The notes under the pieces: model-generated
The model's database searches: none
What the model was told of the DNA's origin: nothing
What the model saw: only the letters and a program-made list of their open reading frames with translations
Origin: a virus
Taxonomy: Duplodnaviria > Heunggongvirae > Uroviricota > Caudoviricetes
Strand: one strand, 5' to 3'
Length of the DNA stretch: 37,641 bases
IMG/VR virus record: IMGVR_UViG_3300012347_000366
Span: 64,001-101,641 of that record
Translations under genes and position numbers: made by a program
Shown: positions 8,689 to 37,018 of the stretch, in pieces
Layout: each line of letters opens with the position of its first letter
Position numbering within the stretch: the stretch's first letter is position 1

Positions 8689-8700
8689 TTGGAGAATCAA

Positions 8701-8898: not shown

Positions 8899-8908
8899 TA
8901 CTACTTTT

Positions 8909-8985: not shown

Positions 8986-9053
8986 GCTTTTTCGTATAAC
9001 TTATTTTTCGTGTGTGATTAAAAAGCAACACAATTTTGTGGTACAATGTCAGC

Positions 9054-9437
9054 ATGGACAAAAAAGCCTTATTAAAGCACTTGAAACTCGAAACTGTAAT
9101 GATTTGGGATTCACTTTGCGAAATTTATACACCTTTGGTTCACTACAATGAACCAAAAATAGAACTTAACCCTTATTTTTGGCGTTGTGCCGGTGCGTGT
9201 TTTCAAAAAGAAAACCGCATACAAATGGGTTACAAATTCTTTAAAGCTAATACATCATATTTCCATTATATGATTGATGTAATACTTCCGCATGAAATAA
9301 TCCACCAAGCGGATTATAATCTTTTCGGAGAATCTGAAAAAATTTGTGGTCACGGTGAAAAATGGTGTGAAATCATGGTACAATATGGTCTTGACGCTAA
9401 CCCGCATCATACAATGGAGATTTCAAAAAATGCTTAA
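9054..9437 (+). CDS. SprT-like zinc metalloprotease (leaderless)
   Basis: RCAGAC...VILPHEIIH...GHGEKWCEIM; ATG 6 nt after TACAAT 9042-9047. Confidence 0.75.
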   Translation: MDKKALLKHLKLETVMIWDSLCEIYTPLVHYNEPKIELNPYFWRCAGACFQKENRIQMGYKFFKANTSYFHYMIDVILPHEIIHQADYNLFGESEKICGHGEKWCEIMVQYGLDANPHHTMEISKNA

Positions 9438-9645
9438 TATCTTGAGTTGGTTTGGTACTTTTGTTTCAATTTTGGGTTCGTTTGCAGTTGCAAGCGCAAT
9501 GTTTAAAATTGGATATGTTTTGTTTACTTTTGGTTCACTTTCGTGGCTGATTGTAGCCTTTTGTAAACGTGACAAGGCATTGGGTGTACTAAATGGCACT
9601 TTTTTCTGTGCCAACTTGTTGGGAATTTACAACAACTTTTTTTAA
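9430..9645 (+). CDS. Three-helix membrane protein (half-transporter-like)
   Basis: 71 aa, three hydrophobic segments. Confidence 0.65.
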   Translation: MLNILSWFGTFVSILGSFAVASAMFKIGYVLFTFGSLSWLIVAFCKRDKALGVLNGTFFCANLLGIYNNFF

Positions 9646-9756
9646 AATAATTTTGGGTTTTTCTGGTTTTTCCGCAAAAACCTGATATAATTAATTCATT
9701 GGAGCAAAACGCTACAATCTGCGAATTCCGGCAGTATCCGGTAATGTGAGAACCAA

Positions 9757-10455
9757 ATGGCTAAAAAACAATTTTTCTGTATTCTTGACACCGAAACCAC
9801 AATGGCCGATACCGTGGCCGATTTTGCAATGATTATTGTTGACCGTGAGGGCAAAATTTATAATCAATGCGCTGTTTTAGTTGCCGGGCATTATGGCACT
9901 CACGAATTATTCCACGATAAGGCGGCCAACGATATTTGGGGTTATGCGGGTTTGGAAAAACGTAAATCCAACTATGTTAATATGTTAGATAATGGCATTC
10001 GCATGGTGGCTTCAGTTAATGCCATTAATAAATGGATTAATCAAGCCATTGGCAAATATAATCCACAATTGACTGCATATAATCTGGCATTTGATAAATC
10101 AAAATGCCTTAATACTGGAATTGATTTATCTGGCTTTACTCAAGAATTTTGTTTGTGGCAAGCCGCCGTGGGCAATATTTGCAATAAAAAACAATATCGT
10201 CAATTTGCCCTTGATAATCACGCATTTAACAAAGTTACTCAAAATGGTAATATGACGTTTCAAACTAATGCGGAAATTGTTTGTGGTTTTATTAATGGCG
10301 AGTTTATCAAAGAACCGCATACCGCATTAGAAGATGCCCGTGATTTTGAATTGCCTATTCTCAAAAGCATACTCAAAAAACGTGACTGGAAAGATAATAT
10401 CAAACCATATTCATGGCGCGATTTTCAAACCAAAAACTGGTTTGTTGCAAAATAA
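9757..10455 (+). CDS. DEDDh 3'-5' exonuclease
   Basis: ILDTETT (ExoI), AYNLAFD (ExoII), HTALEDA (ExoIII). Confidence 0.85.
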   Translation: MAKKQFFCILDTETTMADTVADFAMIIVDREGKIYNQCAVLVAGHYGTHELFHDKAANDIWGYAGLEKRKSNYVNMLDNGIRMVASVNAINKWINQAIGKYNPQLTAYNLAFDKSKCLNTGIDLSGFTQEFCLWQAAVGNICNKKQYRQFALDNHAFNKVTQNGNMTFQTNAEIVCGFINGEFIKEPHTALEDARDFELPILKSILKKRDWKDNIKPYSWRDFQTKNWFVAK

Positions 10456-10460
10456 ATAAT

Positions 10461-10483
10461 ATCAGGGGCTAATAACCCCTGAT
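10461..10483 (+). terminator. Hairpin terminator
   Basis: ATCAGGGG/CCCCTGAT stem after exonuclease stop. Confidence 0.65.
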
Positions 10484-10500
10484 TATTTGGAGATAATCAA

Positions 10501-10653
10501 ATGCGGTATTTTTATTTTTTCTTGAATATGTTATTGGTTCCTGTACATTTTATTTTGTGCATTTGTTTTTATATTCCTAATGCTTTTACAAGGGCATACT
10601 GGGAAACTCTGGAAGCAATAAAAGAAACCAAACGGATTCACGGCATTAAATAA
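10501..10653 (+). CDS. Small hydrophobic protein (50 aa)
   Basis: GGAG SD; MRYFYFFLNMLLVPVHFILCICF... Confidence 0.5.
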   Translation: MRYFYFFLNMLLVPVHFILCICFYIPNAFTRAYWETLEAIKETKRIHGIK

Positions 10654-10667
10654 TTGGAGAATATCAA

Positions 10668-10916
10668 ATGGAAACTATTGGCTGGATTGGTGGCATTTTA
10701 TTGGCATTTTGCGGATTACCTCAGGCCGTAGAATCATACAAAACAAAAAACTCTGATGGATTAACTTGGGGATTTTTGATTATGTGGGGCGTGGGAGAAT
10801 TATTTACAATTGTTTATATTATCCCAAAATGGCATTGGCCCCTGATATTTAATTATACGGCAAACATAATATTTATTTCAATAATTGTATATTATAAAGT
10901 CAGGGGTAAAAAATGA
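10668..10916 (+). CDS. PQ-loop / SemiSWEET-family membrane protein
   Basis: 82 aa, 3 TM helices, GLPQAVESYKTKNSDGLTW (PQ motif). Confidence 0.85.
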   Translation: METIGWIGGILLAFCGLPQAVESYKTKNSDGLTWGFLIMWGVGELFTIVYIIPKWHWPLIFNYTANIIFISIIVYYKVRGKK

Positions 10917-11035
10917 TTGAAACATTATTATATATACTAGACTTTATCAGTATTATGTGCATTATGATAATAATATACATAATATGGCTGATTGTATTAA
11001 AAAGATAATCCAAGCCCCATGTGGGGCTTTTGGCA

Positions 11036-11126
11036 TTTTGAAAACAAAAGTACTCACCACAAAAATGAATACTTTTGTTTTCAAAACTGCGCCAATATTA
11101 TACCACATAATTTGTGCCCGTGTCAA
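11036..11126 (-). repeat. Antisense promoter-hairpin module, copy 3
   Basis: TTGACA-N18-TATAAT (11126-11097), GGCGC, 17-bp hairpin 11036-11052/11070-11086. Confidence 0.8.
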
Positions 11127-11444
11127 GGAAAAAATGCAAATAATTTGGTTTTTGTTACAATTTATTTTTTAAAAAATCACGGTTTTTGTGGTATAATTGA
11201 TTGTGCGCGCCAAAAATTTTTGTGTACTTTTGTTTTCAGATATTACTGCAAACCCAGGTACTCAGAAATATTTTTACATTTATTTTTGTGCGCTTGCCCA
11301 AACTGGCAAAACCCGTGTATAATAGACCCTATGGCAGACAATGATCGGATTGTCTGACAAGGCAAGAAAAAATAAATTTTCTTTTTTCTTGCCAAATGCT
11401 CAAAACGTGATATAATAGAATCTTCAACAACAAAGGAAAGCAAA

Positions 11445-11780
11445 ATGGCTGAAAAGACTAGCAAAACTGTCAACTACACTCCAGAACAATCCGCTCAAAT
11501 GGTGGCCGATTATCAGGCGGGTGTCACCGTGGAAGCAATCGCTGAAAGCCTGGGCAAAACTGTCCGGTCGGTGGTGGCAAAATTGAGCCGTGAAAAAGTG
11601 TACGTGGCTAAAACCTACGTTTCCAAAACTGGCGCTCCAGTAGTCAAAAAAGATGCTCATGCTGATGCAATCGGCGCGATTCTCAAAATGACTGAGGCTG
11701 AAATCGAAAGTCTTACAAAAGCCAATAAAACGGCATTGGAAAAGATTTTCGGCGCATTGGCAAATTCTAAGCCAATCTAA
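11445..11780 (+). CDS. A2: T5 A2-like protein, paralog 2
   Basis: Long identical blocks with paralog 1 (TVNYTPEQ, LGKTVRSVVAKLSREKVY, ESLTKANKTAL). Confidence 0.75.
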   Translation: MAEKTSKTVNYTPEQSAQMVADYQAGVTVEAIAESLGKTVRSVVAKLSREKVYVAKTYVSKTGAPVVKKDAHADAIGAILKMTEAEIESLTKANKTALEKIFGALANSKPI

Positions 11781-11821
11781 TGTATAATGGGGGCTAGACC
11801 CCCATTTTTAAAGGAAACTAA

Positions 11822-12073
11822 ATGCTTTTCAATTTGCCCTCATTTGCTGATAAACCCGTGATTCTGACATTTGCCCAAATTGGCATTAATCCAAGCGATT
11901 ATAATGGCTGGACATTTGACAAAATTCGTCCAGAATATATTAATATCGCAACCGATTATATGTGCGATTTTACTGGAGATTATGATTATGAGATTTTTCA
12001 ACATTATGAATGGGAAATTGATTATCTTAATCAACTGATTAAAATTCCACGTTCTGCATTACTGGGGGATTAA
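11822..12073 (+). CDS. Acidic/aromatic hypothetical protein
   Basis: 83-aa ORF with AAGGA SD. Confidence 0.65.
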   Translation: MLFNLPSFADKPVILTFAQIGINPSDYNGWTFDKIRPEYINIATDYMCDFTGDYDYEIFQHYEWEIDYLNQLIKIPRSALLGD

Positions 12074-12074
12074 A

Positions 12075-12269
12075 ATGGCAAAATACCGCATTGTTAAAGT
12101 CGCAAGATATGAATCAGTTTATTCGATTCAAGTTAAACGCTGGTTTATATGGTGGGATATTGGTCGTGCCCTTTGCTTAAAAGATGCTGAATCTGATATT
12201 GAATGGTTCAAAAACCGTGATAAAGCGATTCGAGATAATCCCCGAGATATTGTTGTCAAAACATATTAA
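12075..12269 (+). CDS. Hypothetical protein
   Basis: 64-aa ORF followed by terminator 12273-12300. Confidence 0.65.
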   Translation: MAKYRIVKVARYESVYSIQVKRWFIWWDIGRALCLKDAESDIEWFKNRDKAIRDNPRDIVVKTY

Positions 12270-12315
12270 AATAAACCCCGATTATGTCGGGGTTTTATTT
12301 TGCCCATTATCTTTT

Positions 12316-12405
12316 GTAATACTTTTGTTTTCAGAAAAAATAAGAAACAAAAGTATTACTTTTGGCTGCGCCAAAATTATACCATAATTTTGTGGCCCGT
12401 GTCAA
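12316..12405 (-). repeat. Antisense promoter-hairpin module, copy 4
   Basis: TTGACA-N18-TATAAT (12405-12376), GGCGC, 15-bp hairpin 12316-12330/12345-12359. Confidence 0.8.
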
Positions 12406-12640
12406 GCCTTGTTACAAACTGTTACATCTGCTGTTGTTTTTTGACCACTTGGCACGATTCTTGCGCCAAAACCGGCCGGTCATAATTATACTGTACGGTG
12501 CAGTTTGTGACTGCTCAGTATAGTTTTTGACTGCACGGTCTGGTCGCTGACCATCGGGTAATTGAGTACTTTGGTACTCAGCAGGTGTGCACCTGCGCCA
12601 AAGTGGAAATCCTTTACAAGTGCAAAATCTCAGCGGTTGT

Positions 12641-12679
12641 GCGCGCCAAATTATAAGTGCGAATCCTTTAGTGTGTCAA
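12641..12679 (-). promoter_or_regulatory. Antisense promoter, copy 5 (different downstream RNA)
   Basis: TTGACA-N18-TATAAT then TTGGCGCGC. Confidence 0.7.
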
Positions 12680-12751
12680 GTGCAAATCTTTGAATTTGAA
12701 AAATTTTTTTGAAAAATGTTATAATACATTATTGATTGAAAGGAATAGCAC

Positions 12752-12883
12752 ATGACAACAGCCGATTTTTTCGCAGATTTTGACACAGAATACTATTCGG
12801 AATTTGTGGAGCACGAACTGTCGCAAATTTTCCAATGCACTATCCCACAAGACGAAAAATCTGCTCTTGATGTTCCATTCTAA
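12752..12883 (+). CDS. Acidic 43-aa peptide ending in DVPF
   Basis: AAGGA SD; MTTADFFADFDTEYYSEFVEHELSQIFQCTIPQDEKSALDVPF. Confidence 0.6.
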   Translation: MTTADFFADFDTEYYSEFVEHELSQIFQCTIPQDEKSALDVPF

Positions 12884-12932
12884 TCTTGATATAATTATTA
12901 CTTAAACAGCGCAGAAACCAACTAAAGGACAT

Positions 12933-13244
12933 ATGATGACTAAAGCAACTCAAACTAATTACACACCAGAACAAACTCAGGAACTCGTTCAAGGCTACCA
13001 AGCTGGCGAGACCGTGGAAGTTTTGGCCAACAAACTCGGCAAAACTGTTCGCTCAGTAGTGGCCAAGCTTGCACGTGAAGGCGTGTACCAAGCTAAAACC
13101 CGTGCTCAAGGCCAAGCCCGCGTGCGTAAATCGGAGCTGGTTGACAAACTTGCCCTGGCCTGCGGCGTGGCTCCAGAAGTGTTTGAATCGCTTGAAAAAG
13201 CCAACCACGATGTGCTGGAAGCACTTGTGGCACACATGGCCTGA
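12933..13244 (+). CDS. A2: T5 A2-like protein, paralog 3
   Basis: NYTPEQT..YQAG..LGKTVRSVVAKLAREGVYQAK..RKSEL..ESLEKAN. Confidence 0.75.
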   Translation: MMTKATQTNYTPEQTQELVQGYQAGETVEVLANKLGKTVRSVVAKLAREGVYQAKTRAQGQARVRKSELVDKLALACGVAPEVFESLEKANHDVLEALVAHMA

Positions 13245-13310
13245 TGGCTGTGGTTGAGGGTCAAGAAATATTGGCTTGATCCTCACAGCAAATTCAAGTA
13301 TAATATATAC

Positions 13311-13449
13311 TTAGACAGTCGGGAAGGGCTTAATGAATACCAAACGATCATATCAGTTGGTGCCCGTTCCGTAACAGCAGCCCACCCCACTAAACAGCAA
13401 TTGAATTGCAATCATCTGTGTGGCTAGTCTGGTTACAACGACTGTCTAA
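13311..13449 (+). ncRNA. Candidate 139-nt ncRNA
   Basis: Starts 7 nt after TTGATC-N17-TATAAT (13276-13304); closed by perfect 11-bp stem TTAGACAGTCG/CGACTGTCTAA; no ORF. Confidence 0.55.
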
Positions 13450-13493
13450 ATTATTCACTTGATTATATAGTAAAACTACTGTATAATAGATAT

Positions 13494-14046
13494 ATAGATT
13501 GGGTGACAGCGGCAGGGAACTACAGTACCGATAGCGTCTTAATTGTGGAGAAGTCCGAGCCACAGCCCTTAGCTCTCATAATAGAGTACTTTGACTAGGC
13601 ATAGGTTGCTAGTGTAATAATCGTGAAGGTGCAGCAAGACCGCCTCTGCAGGGGCCTTAAGTGTCTTCCACGTGGATCGAAAGCGTACAATAGAATTTGC
13701 AAAGTATTTTATTATGGGCGTTATGAGACCAACGTATTGTTGGATAACAACTTGATGACCACCGAAATATCTCTAGTGGTCGCCCACCAACCCTCTGATG
13801 AGCTGATGCAATTTCAGCGAAACTCACAGTGTCGTGTCAATTGTGCGAGTGATTCCCAACACTCCAATTGCTGCAACTGTGGGTCAGGACGAAAACCCAC
13901 GATAACGAAAACTGGTTGTAAGATTAATTTGTTGGCAATTGCTTCGGCATCTCCTAGCAAAGGTATCCTACATAAACTTAGTAGTGCTGTGGTAATGAGT
14001 AGTGCTAGTGAACAGTTACTATATAAACTGTCGCCTTATCTGGTAC
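13494..14046 (+). ncRNA. Candidate large structured ncRNA (about 550 nt)
   Basis: Promoter TTGATT-N17-TATAAT 13459-13487; GGTGACAG(13502)/CTGTCGCC(14028) end pairing; many internal hairpins; no credible ORF. Confidence 0.45.
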
Positions 14047-14093
14047 CGGCGTAAAATGGTCTTGGCTCTAGAGTGGTAGACTTATAATTACCC

Positions 14094-14347
14094 GACCCTA
14101 AGCTGTGGCAAGTCGTTAACCCTCAACCAGTCGACCCCTAAGTCGTTAAAAGCCGCTGTTTTGGACTAAATGTAAAGTCGCCTCCCTGATGTGGTGGAAA
14201 AGAGTTGGACATAACCACTCAAACAGCGTTGTCCCGCACAGACCCTAAACCGTAGCCGGTATGGCCCCCGTTACTCGTGGCCCGACCCCCAAGTCGTTAA
14301 AAGCAGTGCGCAACACTGTGAAAGCCGACAAAGCCCAAAGTCGTGAA
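14094..14347. repeat. Direct-repeat cluster (injection-stop-signal-like position)
   Basis: 22-bp repeat CGACCCC(T/C)AAGTCGTTAAAAGC at 14132 and 14283; AAGTCG at 14110, 14140, 14175, 14291, 14338. Confidence 0.65.
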
Positions 14348-14536
14348 AAATGTGGTGGGCAGCAGTGCCGAACCAATACTCAAAGTCTCACCTGATATCA
14401 GCTACAACACCCATAACCTAACAGGTGTCTAAGGTGCTATATCTTAGGGTCAAGCAGTAAGTCCAGGTGGTACCTGGCGGTTTAGTCTTGAAGCGAGCAA
14501 CTAAAAACATCAGCCCCTGCTCGAGCAGAAATGTTC

Positions 14537-14572
14537 AAAAGCCCCACACGATTCGCGGTCGGTGGGGCTTTT
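14537..14572. terminator. Bidirectional terminator
   Basis: AAAAGCCCCAC...GTGGGGCTTTT. Confidence 0.75.
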
Positions 14573-14590
14573 GTTTTGCCCAAAGCGCTC

Positions 14591-14626
14591 GGCGCCATTA
14601 TACCACAGTGCGAAACCTTGTGTCAA
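14591..14626 (-). promoter_or_regulatory. Antisense promoter, copy 6
   Basis: TTGACA-N18-TATAAT immediately followed by GGCGCC; runs into terminator 14572-14537. Confidence 0.7.
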
Positions 14627-14696
14627 GTGGGTTTTCAAAAATCTCTGACCCTAAGCTGCAGCAAATTACACAAATTGATCCCACTCACAGCACGCA

Positions 14697-14733
14697 AAAA
14701 AGCCCACTAATCGTTAGAGATTAGTGGGCTTTT
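14697..14733. terminator. Bidirectional terminator ending the leftward early operon
   Basis: AAAAGCCCACTAATC/GATTAGTGGGCTTTT. Confidence 0.8.
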
Positions 14734-14779
14734 GTCATATTAACCTAAATTATGTCGATTTAGGGTCAATTTTGTGCGA

Positions 14780-15103
14780 TTAAGTCGATTTAGGGTCAGG
14801 GTTTGGCACAGAAAGGCGCGATTCAATCAATTTAAGTACAACTTTGTTGACCTTTTCCAGCGATTCCAGCAATTCTAAATCGCAGTCGAGTAGGGTAGCA
14901 ATCCGCTCGATGTGTTCGGCTTTGCGAACCGGCACCTCGCCTCGTTTGTTAAGGTAGGTCTTTTTTTGGTAGACTCCGAGGCTGCTGAGCTTGGCAATAA
15001 TGCTGCGTTCTGGTAGGTCGAGCTGGCGAGCTATGTCACCAACGGGCACCTGAGCCTTGTAGTCGGCAACCATACGGTCAATGATTTCTTTGGTGTATTT
15101 CAT
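14780..15103 (-). CDS. A2-like protein, paralog 4
   Basis: KYTKEIIDRMVADYKA...RSIIAKLSSLGVYQKKTYLNKRG..RKAEH..LESLEKVNK aligns with paralogs 1-3. Confidence 0.75.
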   Translation of the reverse strand: MKYTKEIIDRMVADYKAQVPVGDIARQLDLPERSIIAKLSSLGVYQKKTYLNKRGEVPVRKAEHIERIATLLDCDLELLESLEKVNKVVLKLIESRLSVPNPDPKST

Positions 15104-15115
15104 GACTGTATCTCC

Positions 15116-15907
15116 TTACATCAACCAAGGCAAATCTGTACCGTCTGAGTACGATTTAGGCGGTTTTGGCGATTTAGGGTCAGGAGTTTTAAAAATTTCT
15201 GCACCTACCAGTGGTGGAGGCATTCGATCCCAATCATAGGGGTCTAAGACCATGTATTCCGATCGTAGACTAGGGTGTGCTACCCAGATTTGTGACAACA
15301 TTGTGGCTGCTAGTGCAGGAACGCTCGCATACTCTGTGTCTTTGATGCCTTTTAGACACCATTGCGAAGTAGGCTTCTGTACCTCACCCATTTTAGGGCC
15401 ACTTTTAATAGTCAAACCCTGAGTACGAATTTCAATTACTCGCTCTGACCCTAAGTTATAGCACTCGTCATCCCGCCACAACATAGCTTCTAAGAGGGCT
15501 TCGTCTACTAGCGGGCATCCTTCCTGAATATTCCACTGATTATAACCCACACCGTTGTATTTTTTCTGTGCGCATAAGATTAGTGGAACCAGTGCCGAAT
15601 AATTGGCATACTCTGGACGTGATTGTAATTTAACTAGGCTGCCGCGCTTGAGCTGGCAGGCAACACGCCACAGCCCAATATCCCAGGGCGTCACAATATT
15701 CTTTTTGGCTGTTAGCATAGGGTCGATCTTACCCTCAACTAACACTGGTGTCCAAGTAGCATAATGCGCTACAATTTGTGGTAACATCCACGAACTGTGA
15801 GCGCTTATATAATGTTCTTTGGTTGCAGCTTCTAGCTGGGTCTTGTTGAGTTTTTGGTACTCGTCAAATGGATACGCTTTAATATCCTGTGTTCTAAGTT
15901 TTAACAT
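15116..15907 (-). CDS. Hypothetical protein (263 aa) with Pro-rich tail ending DLPWLM
   Basis: Long ORF co-oriented with A2 paralog 4; no family recognised. Confidence 0.8.
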   Translation of the reverse strand: MLKLRTQDIKAYPFDEYQKLNKTQLEAATKEHYISAHSSWMLPQIVAHYATWTPVLVEGKIDPMLTAKKNIVTPWDIGLWRVACQLKRGSLVKLQSRPEYANYSALVPLILCAQKKYNGVGYNQWNIQEGCPLVDEALLEAMLWRDDECYNLGSERVIEIRTQGLTIKSGPKMGEVQKPTSQWCLKGIKDTEYASVPALAATMLSQIWVAHPSLRSEYMVLDPYDWDRMPPPLVGAEIFKTPDPKSPKPPKSYSDGTDLPWLM

Positions 15908-16212
15908 AAGGTTTCTGGTAATAGTATTGCTTTTGTAGCAAGCAAAAGGCTAGTGTGACCCTAAATCTGGGCGATCTAGAGCCTGGTGGTGAGAGGTGGG
16001 ACAAAAGTTTTGATCGATATATTTTTGCATATGCTTTAAAAACACCAAACACAATAATCCCAACTTAGCGGGTAACTTGGTCTGACTACCCGAATCAGAA
16101 AAAATATCTGCTGCTCACGCCCCCTCGCTCCGGAACTCCGCGGTGGGACTACAGCAAGAATTTTATTCAATTCGGTTGTCACCAAGTTTATATCATCTCT
16201 TAATATAACTAA

Positions 16213-26586: not shown

Positions 26587-26970
26587 AATTTTCTTTTAAA
26601 TTTATAGTCGAAGTTACATTATAACTCAAACAGTACTCCACGACAAGTCAAAATTTATATGATCTGCGCCAATACCACAAAAAATTTTGGCGTTGACGGA
26701 AAGCTACTTGGGTGCTATAATAAACCATCGAATATTATAGGTGTTTTATGACATTTAGCGAATACATTGCACGTCATGCTTACTACTCGTACTTAGAGTA
26801 TTGCAGACAAAACTATTTAAAACCTGAAGTAGACATTAAACTTACGGAGCCAAAGCTATGTGCATTGGTAAAATCTCCTGTTGACAAAACCGGTTAAATC
26901 ACTTATAATGAATGTTCGCCGACCCTATAAACCAGGGCCAAGTCAAATTGCCCGATACAAAGCTAACACA

Positions 26971-27444
26971 ATGCCTAAAACCGAAGACCTAACACAAACA
27001 CTAGAACATCAAACAGTATTTGGGGAATTTCCCACAAATGCTGATAGAGCAGCAATTAAACCAATTCCAGACAATGTACAAATCCCACCAGAAACAATTG
27101 CAGCAATCCAAAAACAGTTTGGTACAGCACTAAAGTTTGATGGTGAGAAGCTTCCACTTAACTTGCTTAGTACTGAAGCAATGAATCAAACAGCCGCAGT
27201 GCTAAAGTTTGGTGCACAAAAGTACGCAGAACACAACTGGCGCAAGGGCTTTGCCTGGAGCCGACCCTTAGCCGCAGCAATGCGACATATTACAGCTTTC
27301 AATAATGGTGAAGATCGTGACCCTGAATCGGGCCTATCGCACCTTGCTCACGCAGCCTGCTGTATTATGTTCCTTCTTGAATTTGAGAAAACCCACCAAC
27401 ACCTAGATGACCGATACAAACCAGATGTACAAGCGACTAACTAA
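26971..27444 (+). CDS. dATP/dGTP diphosphohydrolase (DUF5664-like)
   Basis: KFDGEKLPLNLL...VLKFGAQKYAEHNWRKG...AAMRHI...GEDRDPESGLSHLAHAACC. Confidence 0.85.
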   Translation: MPKTEDLTQTLEHQTVFGEFPTNADRAAIKPIPDNVQIPPETIAAIQKQFGTALKFDGEKLPLNLLSTEAMNQTAAVLKFGAQKYAEHNWRKGFAWSRPLAAAMRHITAFNNGEDRDPESGLSHLAHAACCIMFLLEFEKTHQHLDDRYKPDVQATN

Positions 27445-27640: not shown

Positions 27641-27684
27641 ATTTATATTTGATTGTGTGAGTTAGTTTTGTTATAATTGTGGCT

Positions 27685-28692
27685 ATGACATATTTTAATC
27701 AAACTATCAATCGCGTTGGCTTTGCCTGCAAAATTCAATCTGACCATGATACAGCTAATTCAGACCTGAATACCAAGTCTACAACTATCAGCTATCTTGC
27801 TCGTCAGACTCCGGACGCTGCTCGTGCCAAGCTGTGGGGTTTGCTTGACCACAATCTTAATGCGTTCTATCGTCAGCTTAAATATGTTGCTAAACTGCCG
27901 CACAATCAGCGTATGTTTCGTATCACATCAGACTTGCTGCCAGCGTATACTCATGATGACTATATGCCGTTTTATTTCCAGTCTGATGTTGTTGCCAAGA
28001 TTGAAGCTCACCTGAGTATGTGTGGCGAGTTTGCTCGTCTTCACGATATTCGCCTTAGCTTCCACCCAGGTCAGTTTTGCGTGCTTGCATCAGAAAATCC
28101 TGGCGTTGTTGAGAATTCAATTACCGAGTTCGAGTATCATGCAGACTTGATTCGTTATATGGGTTACGGCCAGAAGTTTCAAGACTTCAAGTGCAATGTG
28201 CACGTTGGCGGTAAGCTAGGCCCCAATGGTATCAAAGCTGCCATGCGTAGACTCTCACCCGAAGCACGCAACACCCTAACAATCGAAAATGCCGAGTTCA
28301 CCTGGGGTCTTGATGCCTCTCTAGAACTGGTAGATACCTGTGCACTTGTTCTTGACATTCATCATCACTGGATTAATTCAGGTGAGTACATTGAACCTAC
28401 AGATCCTCGTTTCAAGCGTGTTGTAGACTCGTGGCGCGGTGTACGTCCAGTGATTCACTATAGTGTTAGCCGCGAAGATTGCTTGGTTGACCACGACCCA
28501 ACCGTTCGACCAGACCTTAAGGCGCTAAAGTCTAGCGGTTTTACAGCTGCTAAATTACGTGCTCACAGTGACTACTACTGGAATTCAGCAGTAAATGACT
28601 GGGCCTTGACATTTAGTCCATTTGCCGATATAATGTGTGAATCAAAACAAAAAAATCTGGCAAGCACACAGCTTGTTAAACAATGCACTTAA
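27685..28692 (+). CDS. uvsE: UV-damage endonuclease (UvsE/UVDE)
   Basis: FRITSDLLP, RLSFHPGQF, EFEYHAD, NVHVGG, LTIEN, VLDIHHHW, HYSVSR, RAHSD motifs. Confidence 0.9.
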   Translation: MTYFNQTINRVGFACKIQSDHDTANSDLNTKSTTISYLARQTPDAARAKLWGLLDHNLNAFYRQLKYVAKLPHNQRMFRITSDLLPAYTHDDYMPFYFQSDVVAKIEAHLSMCGEFARLHDIRLSFHPGQFCVLASENPGVVENSITEFEYHADLIRYMGYGQKFQDFKCNVHVGGKLGPNGIKAAMRRLSPEARNTLTIENAEFTWGLDASLELVDTCALVLDIHHHWINSGEYIEPTDPRFKRVVDSWRGVRPVIHYSVSREDCLVDHDPTVRPDLKALKSSGFTAAKLRAHSDYYWNSAVNDWALTFSPFADIMCESKQKNLASTQLVKQCT

Positions 28693-32761: not shown

Positions 32762-32836
32762 GGACGTATAACTTAACGGCTAAAGTAGTGGGCTTTTAAC
32801 CTACAAATCAGAGTTCGATTCTCTGTGCGTCTACCA
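32762..32836 (+). tRNA. tRNA-Lys(TTT)
   Basis: Loop CTTTTAA; anticodon stem GTGGG/CCTAC; CCA. Confidence 0.95.
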
Positions 32837-32913
32837 TATTTAAACACACTCGTCATTGTCGGATGATAGAGGGGAGACCGAACATCTTGCCCGCGTAGTG
32901 TGTTTAAATATGG
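32834..32913 (+). ncRNA. Stem-enclosed candidate ncRNA
   Basis: Perfect 17-bp closing stem around a 46-nt core. Confidence 0.55.
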
Positions 32914-32920
32914 TATTAGC

Positions 32921-33018
32921 GAATAATATAGATACTTCACTCACCAAAACTCCGAGTACCGCAGGAAGGCTGCAAGCAGGGTTCGACTCCCAGGGCAATA
33001 CACTATATTAACTTATTC
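32921..33018 (+). ncRNA. Y-RNA-like element with T-loop
   Basis: Terminal stems GAATA/TATTC and AATATAG/CTATATT, GATACTTC motif, GGG-TTCGACT-CCC T-arm. Confidence 0.55.
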
Positions 33019-33033
33019 TATACAATTTTTTAC

Positions 33034-33125
33034 GGCTCTATAGTTTAATGGTAAAACGGCGGATTTATATCCCGTAAGCAACAGATAATTGGTTCATCTG
33101 GGTTCGAGTCCCGGTGGAGCTACCA
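33034..33125 (+). tRNA. tRNA-Ile(TAT) with long variable arm
   Basis: Cloverleaf ends and CCA; loop TTTATAT; about 22-nt variable region. Confidence 0.8.
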
Positions 33126-33223: not shown

Positions 33224-33297
33224 GGTGTTTCTAGTGTAGTGGCAGCACTGCTGTCTGTGAAACAGTAAGCCAGGGTTCGATTCCCGGATTCACCCCA
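33224..33297 (+). tRNA. tRNA-His(GTG)
   Basis: G-1/C73, loop CTGTGAA; two U.U mismatches in acceptor. Confidence 0.85.
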
Positions 33298-33298
33298 T

Positions 33299-33374
33299 GC
33301 CGATGTAGCTCAGGTGGTAGAGCAGCGGATTGAAAATCCGTGTGTCACTGGTTCAACCCCAGTCTTCGGCACCA
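33299..33374 (+). tRNA. tRNA-Phe(GAA)
   Basis: Loop TTGAAAA, CCA. Confidence 0.95.
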
Positions 33375-34187: not shown

Positions 34188-34258
34188 CGCGGGGAGTCAG
34201 GGTAGAGGCAAGCCTCATAAGCTCCGCCTGGAAGGTTCGAGTCCTTCCCCCGCAACCA
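34188..34258 (+). tRNA. Initiator-type tRNA-Met(CAT), truncated D-arm
   Basis: CGCGGGG start, C1:A72 mismatch, loop CTCATAA, T-arm, CCA; only 71 nt. Confidence 0.75.
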
Positions 34259-34555
34259 GTATGGCCCTCTAGCAACTTCGGTTGAGCTAGTAAAAACGGC
34301 GGTTGGCCTGCCACCATATTTTGACAATAGATACGATTGCTTATCTGAGGAAACTCGCCGGTGTATCCCGTCTATGTGTGGATATAAGCACCATGCTACA
34401 TTGTCATTGCAGGCTTGTAAACAAATCAGTGCCAATACCACTGTCCTGCGTCCGTTGAAGCGAAAACAAGATGGGCTGCTCTCACGGGGTTTGATGTTTC
34501 CTGACACAAAAATAACACACAGGTACCAGTGCAGTTGCAATGATTAAGATTGCAC

Positions 34556-34630
34556 GGACATATAGCACAGCGGTAGTGCAGCGTCTTCATACGGCGTTGG
34601 TCGCTAGTTCGAATCTAGCTATGTCCACCA
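34556..34630 (+). tRNA. tRNA-Met(CAT) elongator (or Ile2)
   Basis: Cloverleaf, loop TTCATAC, CCA. Confidence 0.9.
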
Positions 34631-34763
34631 CTAAAAATTCAGACTTGTTTTGTATATCAAAAGTCTGTATAATTAATGTTTTAGCGGCAAGAACAATAAT
34701 ACAATGAACAGATTCTGAAATTTGTACTTGTTCTTGCCACTATTTTCAAGTATAATTTATACT

Positions 34764-34946
34764 TAAATTAAACACTTTGGCTATAGTGATAGAAGCCAGT
34801 TACTTCATAACTCGAGCTGTATGCCCTTGTGGCACACAAAAGGTGGTAGCCACACACTTTAAACCGTGCAAACGTCTTAGGTGATGTAGACGCTAAACAA
34901 TTCCAGAAACTGCTTTCGCAGGTTCTTAGCCAGTGTGTTTAATTTA
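34764..34946 (+). ncRNA. Stem-enclosed RNA upstream of Ro60 gene (Y-RNA candidate)
   Basis: Begins just after promoter -10 at 34751; about 20-bp closing stem; CCAGTTACTTC motif. Confidence 0.55.
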
Positions 34947-34983
34947 GGTATAGTATCTTTCTTACTTATTTACAAGGAATCAA

Positions 34984-36294
34984 ATGTCTTCTATCAATCG
35001 TGTTGTGCGTAAGCCTGCTTTTAATTCAGTGGGTACGCAAGTGTCCAATGTTAATGCAGAACGCCAGCTAAAGCGTGTTACTCTTGCAGCTATGCTGTGG
35101 GAAAAGCAGTTTTATATGGACGGTAAAACTCATGCAGAATTGGTAAAGGACCTTGTTGCTAAAGTGTCGCCTGAAAAGGTTTCTGCTTTAGCTGAGGAAG
35201 CCCGTACGAAATTCAAACTTCGTCACATTCCTCTGCTGCTTGTTCGTGAACTTGCACGTCACGGTAAAATGCAAGCAAACGCTCTAACTTCGGTTATTCA
35301 GCGTCCAGACGAAATGTCTGAGTTCTTGTCAATTTATTGGCAAGAAGGCAAAACTGCTGTATCCAACCAAGTCAAAAAAGGCTTGGCAGCTTGTTTTAAC
35401 AAGTTCAACGAATACCAGCTTGCCAAATGGAACAAGAACTCTAACGCAATTCGTTTGCGCGATGTGATGTTCTTGAGCCACCCTAAACCGCAAAATGCTG
35501 ACCAAGCTGCACTTTTTAAGCGTATTGCCTCAGATCAGTTGGAAACACCAGATACCTGGGAAACTCAACTTAGTGCGGGTGCAGATAAGTGTGGTACGTT
35601 TACTCGTCTTATGACTGAGAAGAAACTAGGTGCTCTAGCTTTCTTGCGTAATCTGCGAAATATGCGCGACAGTGGTGTATCGGATTCCCTTATCCGAGCT
35701 TATGCACAAACTGTTGACGTTAGCCGTGTTTTGCCTTTCCGCTATATTGCGGCGGCTCGTATTGTCCCACAATACGAAGACATGCTAGAATCAATGATGT
35801 TTCGCAGTCTTGCGAATCATCAAAAAATTCCTGGTAAAACCGTGTTATTGATCGACGTAAGTGGCTCAATGTTCGGTACTCCAATCTCACAAAAATCAGA
35901 TCTAGAACGATTTGATGCGGCAGCAGCACTTGCTATGTTGTGCCGTGAAGTATGTGAGACTGTTGAGATTTATAGCTTTAGTAATAATGCTGTGCGTGTA
36001 GCACCTCGTCGTGGATTTGCTCTCCGCGAAGCAATCTCTAGTTCTCAAAGTCATGGTGGAACCGCCCTGGGCGCTTCCATGAAGACTGTAGACGGCATCA
36101 GTCAATATGACCGTTGCATTGTGTTTACTGATGAACAAAGCTATGATCGCCCAGGTGCTCCTCGTGGCAAAGGTTACATTGTTAATGTGGCCAGCTACCA
36201 AAACGGAGTTAACCACCAAGCATGGACTGAGATCAATGGTTTCTCAGAAGCTGTAATTGATTACATCCAAGCATTGGAGCAGGAAGCTGCTTAA
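34984..36294 (+). CDS. rsr: Ro60/Rsr TROVE-domain RNA-binding protein with vWA domain
   Basis: LWEKQFY.DG, KLRHIPL, IQRPDE, LRDVMFLSHPKP, TWETQLS, LGALAFLRNLRNM, RVLPFRY, LLIDVSGSM, GGT, VFTDEQ, VNVASYQNG. Confidence 0.93.
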   Translation: MSSINRVVRKPAFNSVGTQVSNVNAERQLKRVTLAAMLWEKQFYMDGKTHAELVKDLVAKVSPEKVSALAEEARTKFKLRHIPLLLVRELARHGKMQANALTSVIQRPDEMSEFLSIYWQEGKTAVSNQVKKGLAACFNKFNEYQLAKWNKNSNAIRLRDVMFLSHPKPQNADQAALFKRIASDQLETPDTWETQLSAGADKCGTFTRLMTEKKLGALAFLRNLRNMRDSGVSDSLIRAYAQTVDVSRVLPFRYIAAARIVPQYEDMLESMMFRSLANHQKIPGKTVLLIDVSGSMFGTPISQKSDLERFDAAAALAMLCREVCETVEIYSFSNNAVRVAPRRGFALREAISSSQSHGGTALGASMKTVDGISQYDRCIVFTDEQSYDRPGAPRGKGYIVNVASYQNGVNHQAWTEINGFSEAVIDYIQALEQEAA

Positions 36295-36356
36295 GTTACT
36301 TACCCACGACCCAAGCCTGTAGCCAGTCAGGTGTTATAAAGGTGGGGCTCTAAGCT

Positions 36357-36453
36357 AAGGGCTTAGAATAGCATATGGTGCTCTAGTACAGTTACTTCTA
36401 TTTGGTTTGAAAACACACTGTACTTAATTTTTCCTATGTTATTCTAAGCCCTT
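36357..36453 (+). ncRNA. Y-RNA-like element B
   Basis: 19-bp terminal stem, internal loop, AGTACAGT/ACTGTACT stem, GTTACTTC motif. Confidence 0.65.
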
Positions 36454-36519
36454 TGCGCTTTTATCGGTTACTTCTAGACTTTTAATCTAACCAAATCGCC
36501 GATAATACTTATTCAAGGG
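36449..36519 (+). ncRNA. Y-RNA-like element C with tRNA-Lys anticodon-arm mimic
   Basis: TTATCGG/CCGATAA stem, GGTTACTTC, TAGA-CTTTTAA-TCTA. Confidence 0.6.
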
Positions 36520-36530
36520 CTACTTTTTAT

Positions 36531-36657
36531 TGCTTTGGCGATAGTTACAGTTTCATCATAAGTTCGATTCTTATATTACGAGCATTTCGTTATTCGCCAA
36601 GTGGTATGGCACCGGGTGTTAAACCCCGGCAAACTCTGTAACGACTAATTCCAAGCA
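36531..36657 (+). ncRNA. YrlA-like RNA: circularly permuted tRNA on a terminal stem
   Basis: T-arm 36558-74, closed acceptor 36575-93, D-arm 36596-610, anticodon-like arm 36612-29, closing stems GTTACAG/CTGTAAC and TGCTTTGG/CCAAGCA. Confidence 0.75.
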
Positions 36658-36668
36658 TTTTATTCCAT

Positions 36669-36742
36669 GCGTCCCTGGTGTAATGGCAGCACGGCGGTCT
36701 CCAAAACCGTTAGTCAGAGTTCGAATCTCTGGGGGCGTGCCA
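36669..36742 (+). tRNA. tRNA-Trp(CCA)
   Basis: Loop CTCCAAA, G73, CCA. Confidence 0.95.
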
Positions 36743-36805
36743 AAATTTAAATTTGAATCTGTTTGCAATATGGGTTATAATTATTCTTTACAGCAAGGAA
36801 TAGCA

Positions 36806-37018
36806 ATGACAGCATTAGATTCAATTTCCAAACCTCTTGTAATCATGCCAGCATATGGTAGAACTTACAAAAACCGAGAAGAAGTTGTTGAAGCCTGGAA
36901 GTCTGGAAAAGATTTCAAGGTTGTTGGCGGCCCTTACTGTTCGATCAGAGATCTAGCAAAATTAGGTTGCAGTTCAGTTTGGATTGACTTAGTTACTTCG
37001 ATGATTAGGGTTGAATAA
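36806..37018 (+). CDS. Hypothetical 70-aa protein
   Basis: Promoter + AAGGA SD; PAYGR.YK...V...W..GKDF...GGPYCSIRD. Confidence 0.7.
   Translation: MTALDSISKPLVIMPAYGRTYKNREEVVEAWKSGKDFKVVGGPYCSIRDLAKLGCSSVWIDLVTSMIRVE

What the first reader, a model, noticed from the sequence alone, without database searches (positions are those of the whole stretch)
34764..36657. Phage Ro60 (TROVE) gene embedded in the tRNA cluster and flanked by at least four Y-RNA-like elements
Seen: a complete TROVE-vWA ORF with its own promoter, one stem-enclosed RNA upstream and three tandem structured RNAs downstream, before tRNA-Trp. Known: bacterial Rsr/Y-RNA systems act in RNA quality control, often with RtcB, and single Ro60/YrlA pairs have been reported in a few phages. 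Inference: a multi-Y-RNA ribonucleoprotein system in a T5-like phage that protects, repairs or decoys for the phage tRNA pool. No RtcB or Pnk/ligase lies in this window.
Basis: partly seen in the sequence, partly recalled or inferred. Interest (0 to 1): 0.85.

Follow-up and report, generated by a model that had tools for sequence, protein, structure and literature searches.

The report
Phage Ro60 with modular Y RNAs
An uncultured freshwater phage distantly related to T5 carries, inside its tRNA gene cluster, a gene for the ring-shaped RNA-binding protein Ro60 flanked by at least five small structured RNAs that share one conserved handle; this is a known kind of RNA-protein particle in an unusually modular form.

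Summary
ORF 34984-36294 (+) is a compact Ro60: Pfam TROVE plus vWA, a sequence match to Thermus phage phiLo Ro60 (E 8e-21), and an AlphaFold model that matches every solved Ro60 (TM 0.63-0.77).

The flanks hold conserved structured RNAs: U1 (34758-34952) upstream, and D2, D3 and D4 (36357-36657) downstream, just before tRNA-Trp. I found a fifth unit at 32912-33020.

Covariation is strong. D2 has 32 pairs, 11 with compensatory changes. D4 has 30 pairs, 9 with compensatory changes.

All units share a stem-bulge-stem handle. D4 adds a circularly permuted tRNA (T arm, closed acceptor, D arm), as in YrlA.

A model built only from relatives' Rfam-YrlA-like units ranks D4 first in the window (E 2e-4). 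It finds the same family beside Ro60 in Xanthomonas-type, crAss-like and Microcystis phages.

Rfam's YrlA model itself finds nothing in the window.

The 96%-complete genome has no RtcB, RNA ligase or AAA_33-type (PNK-like) kinase domain.

Phage Ro60 with Y RNAs is published (22 phages in 2014; phiLo in 2025), and this scan has met the same pairing on other DNA many times. I class it as a new variant of a known kind.

The parts
32836..32911 (+). H0: hairpin with a 14-bp AT-rich outer stem that starts at the CCA end of tRNA-Lys. Its 3' arm resembles the 3' arm of U1.
   Evidence: Sequence; coordinates. Not tested for covariation.
32912..33020 (+). E0: fifth Y-like unit. It has the handle (UAGCGAAU, a 7-bp inner stem AAUAUAG/CUAUAUU, then GAUACUUC) plus a T-arm-like hairpin at 32977-32993.
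   Evidence: R1 model built from relatives only: 20.4 bits, E 0.003. Sequence; coordinates.
34682..34747 (+). Hairpin with a 15-bp stem followed by a T-rich tail, after tRNA-Met. It is terminator-like.
   Evidence: Inverted repeat I9, 93% complementary; fold. The simple terminator scan did not list it.
34751..34763 (+). TATAAT (34751-34756), invariant in 11 loci, and TATACT (34758-34763), conserved there too. These are possible -10 boxes for U1.
   Evidence: Alignment A1. TTGCCA-18-TATACT matches 10 of 12 positions. Consensus-level evidence only.
34758..34952 (+). U1: Y-like unit enclosed by a 26-bp outer stem. Inner handle at 34779-34806 (GGCUAUAGUGAUAGAAGCCAGUUACUUC); 3' strand at 34910-34931; covarying hairpin at 34873-34892.
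   Evidence: RNAalifold on 11 loci: 33 pairs, 9 with compensatory changes, 5 of them in the outer stem. R1: 17.5 bits, E 0.016.
34984..36294 (+). Ro60 (TROVE HEAT-repeat ring plus vWA domain with a DxSxS MIDAS motif), 436 aa.
36303..36346 (+). D1: nested hairpin directly after the stop codon. It is conserved in only 5 relatives and is the most variable part in RNA-library contigs. Its role is unknown.
36357..36453 (+). D2: mini Y unit. It has a 21-bp outer stem, an internal loop, an 8-bp inner stem, the GUUACUUC box and a small conserved apical loop. It has no tRNA-like domain.
   Evidence: 14 loci: 32 pairs, 99.1% paired, 11 pairs with compensatory changes, covariation score 0.347 against 0.129 in shuffles (0 of 500) and 0.077 or less when slid. 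R1: 15.4 bits, E 0.054.
36452..36519 (+). D3: mini Y unit. Inner stem UAUCGG/CCGAUA, the GUUACUUC box, and an anticodon-arm look-alike at 36475-36489 whose loop CUUUUAA equals the loop of the phage tRNA-Lys.
   Evidence: The inner stem covaries among loci (TATCGG, TAACAG, TAATAG, TAGCGG, TAACGG with matching partners). R1 alone is not significant: 10.5 bits, E 0.95.
36531..36657 (+). D4: YrlA-like unit. Outer stem UGCUU(U)GG/CCAAGCA; GGCGAUAG motif; inner stem GUUACAG/CUGUAAC; T arm 36558-36574; closed acceptor-like stem 36575-36593; D arm 36596-36610; extra anticodon-like hairpin 36612-36629.
   Evidence: R1: 25.1 bits, E 1.9e-4, the top hit in the window. 6 loci: 30 pairs, 97.8% paired, 9 with compensatory changes, score 0.291 against 0.107 (0 of 500).

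Best explanation
The locus encodes a phage Ro60-Y RNA ribonucleoprotein system.

**The protein.** It is a compact Ro60 ring (shown).

**The RNAs.** Five neighbouring RNAs on the same strand (E0, U1, D2, D3, D4) are paralogous Y-like RNAs. They share a stem-bulge-stem handle:
- a 5' GNYGWW-type motif;
- a 6-8 bp inner stem;
- a GUUACUUC box;
- a 3' strand of the type CUGU..CG.CUWAUUCC.

This handle has the same layout as the proposed Ro60-binding end of YrlA. That Ro60 binds it is inferred, not shown.

**The variable part.** Each unit carries a different module on the handle:
- D4: a permuted whole tRNA;
- D3: an anticodon-arm look-alike;
- E0: a T arm;
- D2 and U1: small or idiosyncratic loops.

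**Expression (inferred).** The units are probably transcribed together with Ro60 and the tRNAs and cut out of a long precursor. The long outer stems would be the likely cutting sites.

**Function (by analogy).** Each RNA would load one Ro60 ring and use its variable module to engage a host RNA enzyme. The model cases are PNPase in Deinococcus and in Thermus phage phiLo. The effect would be to redirect or block host RNA decay or an RNA-based defence during infection.
For: **Ro60 identity.**
- Pfam TROVE, VWA_2 and vWA_Ro60.
- phmmer match to phiLo Ro60, 9L5Y/9KOP, E 8e-21 over residues 38-432.
- AlphaFold model with pLDDT 82.9 and pTM 0.72. Its best Foldseek matches are all Ro60: 9kop TM 0.77, 2nvo 0.67, 1yvp 0.65, human 9nen 0.65.
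- The MIDAS residues D291, S293 and S295 are invariant in 13 homologues.

**Real RNA structure.**
- D2 and D4 covariation stands far above both controls.
- The U1 outer stem and the D3 inner stem covary.

**Link to YrlA.**
- In 6 relatives Rfam YrlA (RF02553) matches the unit directly upstream of Ro60 at 28-43 bits, E 3e-6 to 0.05.
- Model R1, built only from 10 such units of relatives, ranks the window's D4 first and also scores E0, U1 and D2.
- R1 scores nothing in the other 64 kb of the genome.

**Association with Ro60 rather than with tRNA clusters.**
- The same units flank Ro60 in Xylella phage Usme, where the 7.3-kb stretch around the gene has no annotated tRNA gene (R1 80, 49 and 47 bits).
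- They also flank it in crAss-like cr106_1 and in Microcystis phage Mvi-JY20.
- The composite handle motif occurs 58 times on the Ro60 strand and 4 times on the other strand in 135 kb of such loci.

**Synteny.** tRNA-Met, then units, Ro60, units, then tRNA-Trp in most of the 17 related IMG/VR loci whose flanks reach the two tRNA genes.

**Transcription hint.**
- Contigs from RNA libraries of three studies cover the gene.
- One 1305-nt contig bridges the Ro60 3' end, D1-D4, tRNA-Trp and tRNA-Tyr.

**Precedent.** phiLo Ro60 binds two adjacent Yrl RNAs and host PNPase (PMC12135203).
Against: - No binding, processing or end-mapping data exist for this phage.
- Rfam's YrlA model finds nothing in the window even at E 10.
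- The window lacks the canonical upstream unit (U2) that its relatives have.
- R1 scores for U1, D2 and D3 are weak (E 0.016 to 0.95). tandem tRNAs (33232-33350) and, just below, tRNA-Met score nearly as high as D4.
- Part of the 5' motif (TATAGT, GATAGT) also looks like a -10 box, so it could be DNA signal rather than RNA.
- E0, and a further unit in relatives, lie 1.5-2 kb from Ro60 among tRNAs. That fits a tRNA-operon role as well.
- RNA evidence comes from assembled contigs only. These cannot show ends, strand or level.
- The host, and hence its PNPase, is unknown.
Confidence: 0.65

Rival explanations
1. The structured elements are cis-acting punctuation of a long tRNA/mRNA precursor. They would be nuclease cutting sites, stabilisers or attenuators for the tRNA operon and the Ro60 mRNA. 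They would not be free RNAs bound by Ro60.
For: - An RNA-library contig bridges Ro60, D1-D4 and two tRNAs, so co-transcription is likely.
- The outer stems are long (26 bp in U1, 21 bp in D2), and H0 starts exactly at the CCA end of tRNA-Lys.
- E0 and a further unit in relatives sit between tRNAs, away from Ro60.
Against: - Cutting signals do not explain a sequence-conserved handle shared with Ro60 loci of unrelated phages, among them Usme, where no tRNA gene is annotated in the 7.3 kb around Ro60.
- They do not explain the full T, closed-acceptor and D domain of D4.
- The two readings are compatible: M. smegmatis YrlA and YrlB are themselves cut from one precursor (PMC4201824).
Confidence: 0.15
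2. The units are decaying tRNA genes or tRNA-dimer remnants of a fast-evolving phage tRNA cluster and have no function of their own.
For: - The T arm, D arm and anticodon-like loops are plainly tRNA-derived.
- tandem tRNAs (33232-33350) and, just below, tRNA-Met score nearly as high as D4 with R1, and Rfam YrlA's best weak match in the genome (14.3 bits) lies on the tRNA-His/tRNA-Phe pair.
- A degenerate initiator-tRNA-like element lies nearby at 34188-34258.
Against: - Compensatory changes keep every helix of D2 and D4 across loci with 71-98% identity.
- The permuted order with a closed acceptor is conserved.
- The handle is not part of any tRNA, yet it is conserved across distant phages.
Confidence: 0.04
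3. The protein works mainly without these RNAs, for example as a direct inhibitor of a host defence. Phage Bas63 gp130 counters Ppl in that way. The neighbouring RNAs would serve translation, like the tRNAs and tmRNA beside them.
For: - Bas63 gp130 is Ro60-like, lies next to tRNA genes, and its deletion matters on a host carrying Ppl (PMC11482910).
- This phage and its relatives put Ro60 in one array with tRNAs and a permuted tmRNA.
Against: - Units and the Ro60 gene lie side by side on one strand in four phage lineages.
- The similarity in layout between the handle and the Ro-binding end of YrlA points to a physical partnership.
Confidence: 0.1

Closest known systems
Bacterial and mycobacteriophage Rsr (Ro60) with YrlA/YrlB Y RNAs (Chen et al. 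2014, PMC4201824; Rfam RF02553)
   Same: - A Ro60 orthologue with non-coding RNAs on the same strand within 4 kb.
- More than one RNA per locus.
- A terminal stem-bulge-stem with a GNCGAA-type motif followed by YUAY.
- In D4, a T arm, an acceptor stem closed by a loop, and a D arm in the permuted order.
- Processing from a common precursor is plausible.
   Different: - No element of the window reaches, or even approaches, the Rfam threshold.
- D4 has no hairpin before the T arm. Instead it has an anticodon-like hairpin after the D arm, so the tRNA is opened at the variable region rather than at the anticodon stem.
- D2, D3 and U1 have no tRNA-like domain.
- The locus sits inside a tRNA/tmRNA array.
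- The genome holds no RtcB or RtcA partner.
Thermus phage phiLo phiRo60 with Yrl1 and Yrl2 (Hu et al. 2025, PMC12135203; PDB 9KOP, 9L5Y)
   Same: - A phage-encoded compact Ro60. It is the best sequence match (E 8e-21) and the best structure match (TM 0.77).
- Several adjacent Y-like RNAs with stem-bulge-stem shape.
- The phage genome holds no RNA repair genes.
   Different: - Only 23% identity.
- There, binding to the RNAs and to host PNPase was measured; here nothing was.
- Yrl1 and Yrl2 lie upstream only and were not described as tRNA-like or as sharing the GUUACUUC box.
Deinococcus radiodurans Rsr-Yrn1-PNPase machine (RYPER)
   Same: The working model is the same. The Y RNA handle binds the Ro60 ring and the variable module tethers an effector enzyme. 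Yrn1 also has a T-arm-like loop.
   Different: - It is a cellular stress system.
- Fold similarity is TM 0.67 and sequence identity 18%.
- A PNPase partner is unknown here.
E. coli phage Bas63 gp130 (PhageMaP preprint, PMC11482910)
   Same: A Ro60-like phage protein directly beside a tRNA gene array. The authors suspected that some 'tRNAs' there are Y RNAs. It has a counter-defence phenotype.
   Different: - A different phage lineage.
- No RNA partners were defined there.
- I did not compare the sequences.

Membership tests
Ro60 / Rsr (TROVE) | TROVE HEAT-repeat ring | tested here: met
   - Pfam TROVE 39.9 bits, cut-off 23.
- The AlphaFold model matches all solved Ro60 structures at TM 0.63-0.77, probability 1.00.
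Ro60 / Rsr (TROVE) | C-terminal vWA domain with a MIDAS motif (DxSxS) | tested here: met
   - VWA_2 scores 28.4 bits, above its cut-off of 27. vWA_Ro60 scores 25.9 bits, just under its cut-off of 27.7.
- D291, S293 and S295 are invariant in 13 homologues.
Ro60 / Rsr (TROVE) | Binds Y RNA on the outer surface and misfolded RNA in the hole | not testable with these tools
No protein-RNA prediction was run.
YrlA (Rfam RF02553) | Encoded within 4 kb of the Ro60 gene on the same strand | tested here: met
   U1, D2, D3 and D4 lie within 400 nt of the ORF and E0 lies 2 kb upstream, all on the + strand.
YrlA (Rfam RF02553) | Score at or above the family's gathering threshold (69 bits) | tested here: not met
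   - No YrlA match in the window even at E 10.
- In the whole genome the best weak match (14.3 bits) lies on the tRNA-His/tRNA-Phe pair; the others are 13.5 bits or less.
- Relatives' upstream units reach only 28-43 bits.
YrlA (Rfam RF02553) | GNCGAAN0-1G motif near the 5' end, then YUAY | tested here: inconclusive
   - D4 has GGCGAUAG (7 of 8), followed by UUAC.
- Its orthologue in L012 has the exact GGCGAACG, and Microcystis phage units have GGCGAAG.
- U1, D2 and E0 have UAGUGAUAG, UGGUGCU and UAGCGAAU. D3 has none.
- The equivalence of the motifs is by position, not proven.
YrlA (Rfam RF02553) | tRNA-like domain: T stem-loop, closed acceptor-like stem and D stem-loop in that order | tested here: met
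   - Met for D4 only. All three helices keep pairing, with 1, 4 and 1 compensatory pairs.
- E0 has only a T arm.
- U1, D2 and D3 lack the domain and so resemble YrlB-type or mini Y RNAs.
Y RNA (general) | 5' and 3' ends pair into a stem-bulge-stem that carries the Ro60 site | tested here: met
   An outer stem, an internal loop and an inner stem are supported by covariation in D2 and D4.
Y RNA (general) | Stable small RNA bound by Ro60 in vivo | not testable with these tools
   Only assembled contigs of RNA libraries were available. These cannot show RNA ends or binding.

The most novel reading that the evidence does not exclude
The Y RNA handle is a scaffold on which the phage displays interchangeable look-alikes of tRNA parts, above all anticodon stem-loops.

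**What was seen.**
- In 20 of 73 units from 21 loci, the hairpin right after the GUUACUUC box has a 7-nt loop of the form C-U-N-N-U/G-A-A. Shuffles give 0.125.
- These loops carry seven different 'anticodons': GUU, UGU, UUU, UCU, CUU, GCU and GUG.
- The window's D3 loop is identical to the loop of the phage tRNA-Lys.
- Among near-identical D3 orthologues, substitutions pile up at loop positions 2-4 (Fisher p 0.02).

**The reading.** Ro60-bound anticodon-loop mimics would act as decoys for, or recruiters of, host enzymes that read anticodon loops. Candidates are anticodon nucleases of anti-phage defences or t6A-type modification enzymes. The mimics would evolve quickly in an arms race.
Probability: 0.2. 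Interest if true: 0.85.

Novelty: new variant of a known kind. Interest (0 to 1): 0.5.

Why it matters
What phage Ro60 does is still open. So far there is one structural study (phiLo) and one knock-out phenotype (Bas63).

This locus and its relatives show three things:
- Phage Ro60 genes travel with arrays of up to seven paralogous RNAs.
- These RNAs keep one handle and swap their outer modules.
- The same handle recurs in crAss-like, Xanthomonas-type, cyanobacterial and T5-like phages, with scores below Rfam's threshold or no Rfam match at all.

That yields a concrete, testable RNA family and a set of natural module swaps. These can be used to ask which host enzymes the particle recruits. The family could also improve annotation of the non-coding gaps in phage tRNA regions.

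Tried and rejected
1. **Rfam on the window.** Neither the gathering-threshold search nor the E-value searches found anything beyond tRNAs. RF02553 over the whole genome gave only weak matches (14.3 bits or less); the best lies on the tRNA-His/tRNA-Phe pair.

2. **Near-identical GenBank phages.** None were found for the locus or for the first 8 kb of the window.

3. **RNA repair partners.** RtcB, RNA_lig_T4_1, RNA_ligase and AAA_33 are all absent. The RNA_lig_T4_1 search rang in no control genome either, so that one result is weak.

4. **An alternative fold of D4.** Here UCGUUAU would pair with GUAACGA, giving a tRNA without a T arm (Rfam tRNA 17.9 bits). I rejected it because the orthologue in L012 cannot form that pairing, while the closed acceptor stem covaries.

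5. **Promoter and terminator scans.** Counts were not above shuffles, so I claim no promoter.

6. **Depths in RNA-library contigs.** Ro60 stood at 1,000-16,000 against 3-200 in the upstream tRNA region, in runs of 85-104 million letters. This is hard to reconcile with DNA carry-over. But depths are per contig and summed over strains, and the runs were found with this very stretch. I use them only as a hint of transcription.

7. **A contig joint from 34617 to 36678** could be a relative lacking the whole cassette. Both ends lie in conserved tRNA arms and the depth is low, so I did not use it.

8. **Illumina adapter letters** abut contig ends at 34987, 36310 and 36655 in one run. They are too weak to call RNA ends.

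9. **Not attempted.** I did not try a protein-protein complex prediction or a second covariance model.
Full report
**Where the window lies.** The window is the last 37.6 kb of a 101.6-kb IMG/VR phage contig, rated 96% complete. The GC content is 42%.

PHROG matches identify the following:
- a tape-measure protein;
- a J-like central tail fibre;
- portal and large terminase;
- a fused head protease and major head protein;
- ribonucleotide reductase;
- SbcC;
- a family-A DNA polymerase.

The polymerase is 48% identical to those of Vibrio phage pVp-1 and related Vibrio phages of 80-129 kb, which I take to be T5-like from my own knowledge. Nothing close exists in GenBank phages. Public runs that hold the stretch are almost all freshwater. 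'T5-like' is therefore right only in a distant sense.

**The protein.**
- ORF 34984-36294 (+) codes for 436 aa.
- It matches Pfam TROVE, VWA_2 and vWA_Ro60 and PHROG 850.
- By sequence it matches one solved protein, Ro60 of Thermus phage phiLo (9L5Y/9KOP), with E 8e-21 over residues 38-432.
- An AlphaFold model built from 13 homologues has pLDDT 82.9 and pTM 0.72.
- The 13 significant Foldseek matches of that model are all Ro60 structures. They include phiLo (TM 0.77), Deinococcus Rsr (0.67), Xenopus (0.65) and human (0.65).
- The MIDAS residues D291, S293 and S295 are invariant.
- It is a short Ro60, 436 aa against the 460-532 residues modelled in those structures.
- Homologues occur in 98 GenBank phage records, all below 60% identity. 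The hosts include Bacteroides (crAss-like phages), Streptomyces, Xanthomonas, Rhizobium, Gordonia and Caulobacter.

**The RNAs in the window.** Both flanks fold far better than shuffles, with z -5.2 and -4.4.

Upstream, in order:
- After tRNA-Met comes a terminator-like hairpin (34682-34747).
- Then a TATAAT that is invariant in 11 loci.
- Then U1 (34758-34952), closed by a 26-bp AT-rich stem.

Downstream, in order:
- hairpin D1 (36303-36346);
- D2 (36357-36453);
- D3 (36452-36519);
- D4 (36531-36657);
- then, 11 nt on, tRNA-Trp.

All four units share a frame:
- a 5' motif of the type UAGUGAUAG, UGGUGMU or GGCGAUAG;
- a 6-8 bp inner stem;
- a GUUACUUC box (GUUAC in D4);
- a variable module;
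- the returning strand of the inner stem;
- a 3' motif of the type CG.CUWAUUCC, whose CC pairs with the GG of the 5' motif.

**Relatives.** I fetched 17 related loci, 61-94% identical in Ro60. Most of those whose flanks reach the two tRNA genes keep the order tRNA-Met, Ro60, tRNA-Trp.

Ten of the related loci have a full extra unit, U2, between U1 and the gene; an eleventh (L008) keeps a truncated one. The window, L002 and L007 lack U2 through a clean deletion.

U2 has a canonical T arm and D arm. Rfam's YrlA model matches it below threshold but significantly, at 28-43 bits with E 3e-6 to 0.05.

**A model that excludes the window.** I aligned ten U2 units, none from the window, and built model R1 from them.

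| Hit in the window | Coordinates | Bits | E-value |
|---|---|---|---|
| D4 (top hit) | 36531-36653 | 25.1 | 1.9e-4 |
| E0 (new unit) | 32912-33020 | 20.4 | 0.003 |
| U1 core | 34779-34927 | 17.5 | 0.016 |
| D2 core | 36371-36435 | 15.4 | 0.054 |
| D3 | 36447-36516 | 10.5 | 0.95 |

The other high hits, between D4 and U1 in rank, lie on tRNA genes or tandem tRNAs. Chen et al. warned of tRNA dimers as false positives.

R1 scores nothing in the other 64 kb of the genome.

In relatives R1 finds a further unit between tRNA-Asn and tRNA-Gln at 42-60 bits. It also finds arrays of up to seven units in L016. The window's contig breaks just before the place where that further unit would lie.

**Covariation.**
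- D2, 14 loci: 32 pairs, 99.1% of cells paired, 11 pairs with compensatory changes. The covariation score is 0.347 against 0.129 in shuffles (0 of 500) and at most 0.077 when the partners are slid.
- D4, 6 loci: 30 pairs, 97.8% paired, 9 pairs with compensatory changes. The score is 0.291 against 0.107 (0 of 500) and at most 0.049 when slid.
- In D4 the inner stem, T stem, closed acceptor stem and D stem each carry compensatory changes. The extra hairpin after the D arm covaries too (CCGGG/CCCGG, CCGGA/UCCGG, CCCGU/ACGGG).
- The D3 inner stem appears as UAUCGG, UAACAG, UAAUAG, UAGCGG or UAACGG, each with its matching partner.
- The U1 outer stem has 14 invariant pairs and 7 variable pairs, 5 of them with compensatory changes. 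An inner hairpin at 34873-34892 also covaries.

These are real RNA structures, not decayed tRNA genes.

**What D4 is.** Its order is:
1. outer stem;
2. GGCGAUAG;
3. inner stem;
4. T arm (AUAAG-UUCGAUU-CUUAU);
5. a 7-bp acceptor-like stem closed by a loop;
6. D arm (GCCA-AGUGGUA-UGGC);
7. an anticodon-like hairpin;
8. the returning strands.

This is the YrlA plan of T arm, closed acceptor and D arm (PMC4201824) with one difference. The hairpin that YrlA and U2 carry before the T arm is missing, and a hairpin follows the D arm instead. The permuted tRNA is therefore opened at the variable region.

The 5' motif is one letter from the published GNCGAAN0-1G. It matches that motif exactly in the L012 orthologue and in the units of Microcystis phage Mvi-JY20.

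**Is the family tied to Ro60 or to tRNA clusters?**
- Xylella phage Usme (44 kb) has no annotated tRNA gene in the 7.3 kb around Ro60. It carries three to four units directly upstream of the gene (R1 80, 49, 47 and 15 bits; Rfam YrlA 50, 40 and 26 bits).
- crAss-like phage cr106_1 has two to three units downstream of its TROVE gene.
- Microcystis phage Mvi-JY20 has Ro60 between tRNA genes, with two units downstream.
- The composite motif occurs 58 times on the Ro60 strand and 4 times on the opposite strand in 135 kb of such loci.
- The closest GenBank protein, from Ralstonia jumbo phage RsoM2USA, has no such unit.

The association is with Ro60.

**Expression.** Only assembled contigs could be laid.
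- Runs from RNA libraries of three studies hold the locus.
- One 1305-nt contig bridges the Ro60 3' end, D1-D4, tRNA-Trp and tRNA-Tyr.
- Depths over Ro60 are 10-100 times those over the upstream tRNAs, in runs of only 85-104 million letters.
- That is hard to explain by DNA carry-over. The tool's cautions apply, however, so I treat it as a hint of co-transcription.

**Function.**
- The genome has no RtcB, T4-type Rnl1, RNA_ligase or AAA_33-type (PNK-like) kinase domain. A self-contained repair module is unlikely.
- Published precedents point elsewhere. phiLo Ro60 with Yrl1 and Yrl2 binds host PNPase and damps its activity (PMC12135203). Bas63 gp130, a Ro60-like protein beside tRNA genes, counters the Ppl defence (PMC11482910).
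- The most likely mechanism is the general Y RNA one: the handle binds Ro60 and the variable module engages a host RNA enzyme. This step is inferred.

**A feature worth following.**
- In many units the hairpin after the GUUACUUC box has a 7-nt loop C-U-N-N-U/G-A-A. It occurs in 20 of 73 units against 0.125 in shuffles.
- These loops carry seven different central triplets.
- The window's D3 loop CUUUUAA equals the anticodon loop of the phage's own tRNA-Lys. The loop of a relative's unit equals that of its neighbouring tRNA-Asn.
- Among near-identical D3 orthologues, changes cluster at loop positions 2-4.
- This suggests that anticodon-arm mimics are displayed on the Ro60 handle. Whether they act as decoys is open.

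**Standing.**
- Phage Ro60 with Y RNAs, and several Y RNAs per locus, are in print.
- The papers I searched describe neither the shared GUUACUUC-type handle across phage lineages, nor the mini units without a tRNA domain, nor the D4 topology.
- This scan has noted the same pairing on other DNA many times: 1178 notes hold the words Ro60, TROVE, YrlA and phage, and one related phage was noted with three tandem units after the gene. Here it is a repeat.
Interest is moderate.

Noticed in passing
window 34188-34258: A tRNA-like element that neither ARAGORN nor Rfam calls. It starts CGCGGGG and ends CCCCGCAACCA, as bacterial initiator tRNA does by my recollection (this would give a C1-A72 mismatch). 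It has a canonical T arm and a CUCAUAA loop, but the D and anticodon stems are degenerate. It is 88-100% conserved in 8 relatives.
   Followed up: partly
window 34263-34555: A 290-nt insert between that element and tRNA-Met. It is present (97-98% identical over the shared part) in L004 and partly in L002; most other relatives match only a short stretch (31-59 nt) at one end, and in L012 T0 abuts tRNA-Met directly. Its fold is no better than shuffles (z +0.95). Its nature is unknown.
   Followed up: partly
G000:C1:640-1089 (start of the contig); also L004 7005-7276, L005 6338-6603, L010 6903-7212: The phage and its relatives encode a permuted (two-piece) tmRNA at the end of the tRNA array. The tag is ANDTQFALVA. 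In relatives Rfam tmRNA_permuted scores 112-116 bits. crAss-like cr106_1 also has a tmRNA 2.3 kb upstream of its TROVE gene.
   Followed up: partly
L002 5814-5923, L007 4846-4955, L012 6305-6415 and others: A further YrlA-like unit lies between tRNA-Asn and tRNA-Gln in relatives (R1 42-60 bits). Its loop CUGUUAA equals the anticodon loop of the neighbouring tRNA-Asn. The window's contig ends before this position.
   Followed up: partly
L034 (Xylella phage Usme, LR743523.1) 2294-2900; L033 (cr106_1) 4340-4675; L032 (Microcystis phage Mvi-JY20) 4398-4600: Unannotated arrays of Y-like units lie next to the Ro60 genes of cultured or reference phages. In Mvi-JY20 the Ro60 gene lies between tRNA-Leu and tRNA-Gln/Arg/Met.
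   Followed up: partly
window 27679-28692 and 26881-27444: A UvdE-type UV damage endonuclease (Pfam 2.5e-39) and a dATP/dGTP diphosphohydrolase N-terminal domain (2.7e-35) lie upstream of the tRNA array.
   Followed up: no
window 34987, 36310 and 36655: In one RNA-library run, contig ends at these places abut Illumina adapter letters. The positions fall just inside the start of Ro60, 16 nt past its stop, and in the terminal stem of D4. They may be discrete RNA ends or library artefacts.
   Followed up: no
window 36770-37018: A small ORF of about 82 aa lies between tRNA-Trp and tRNA-Tyr, with no Pfam or PHROG match. In L002 these two tRNAs are only 51 nt apart, so the ORF is an insertion.
   Followed up: partly
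window 33034-33125: ARAGORN calls a 92-nt tRNA-Ile with anticodon UAU (Rfam tRNA 54.5 bits). It is unusually long for that isotype.
   Followed up: no
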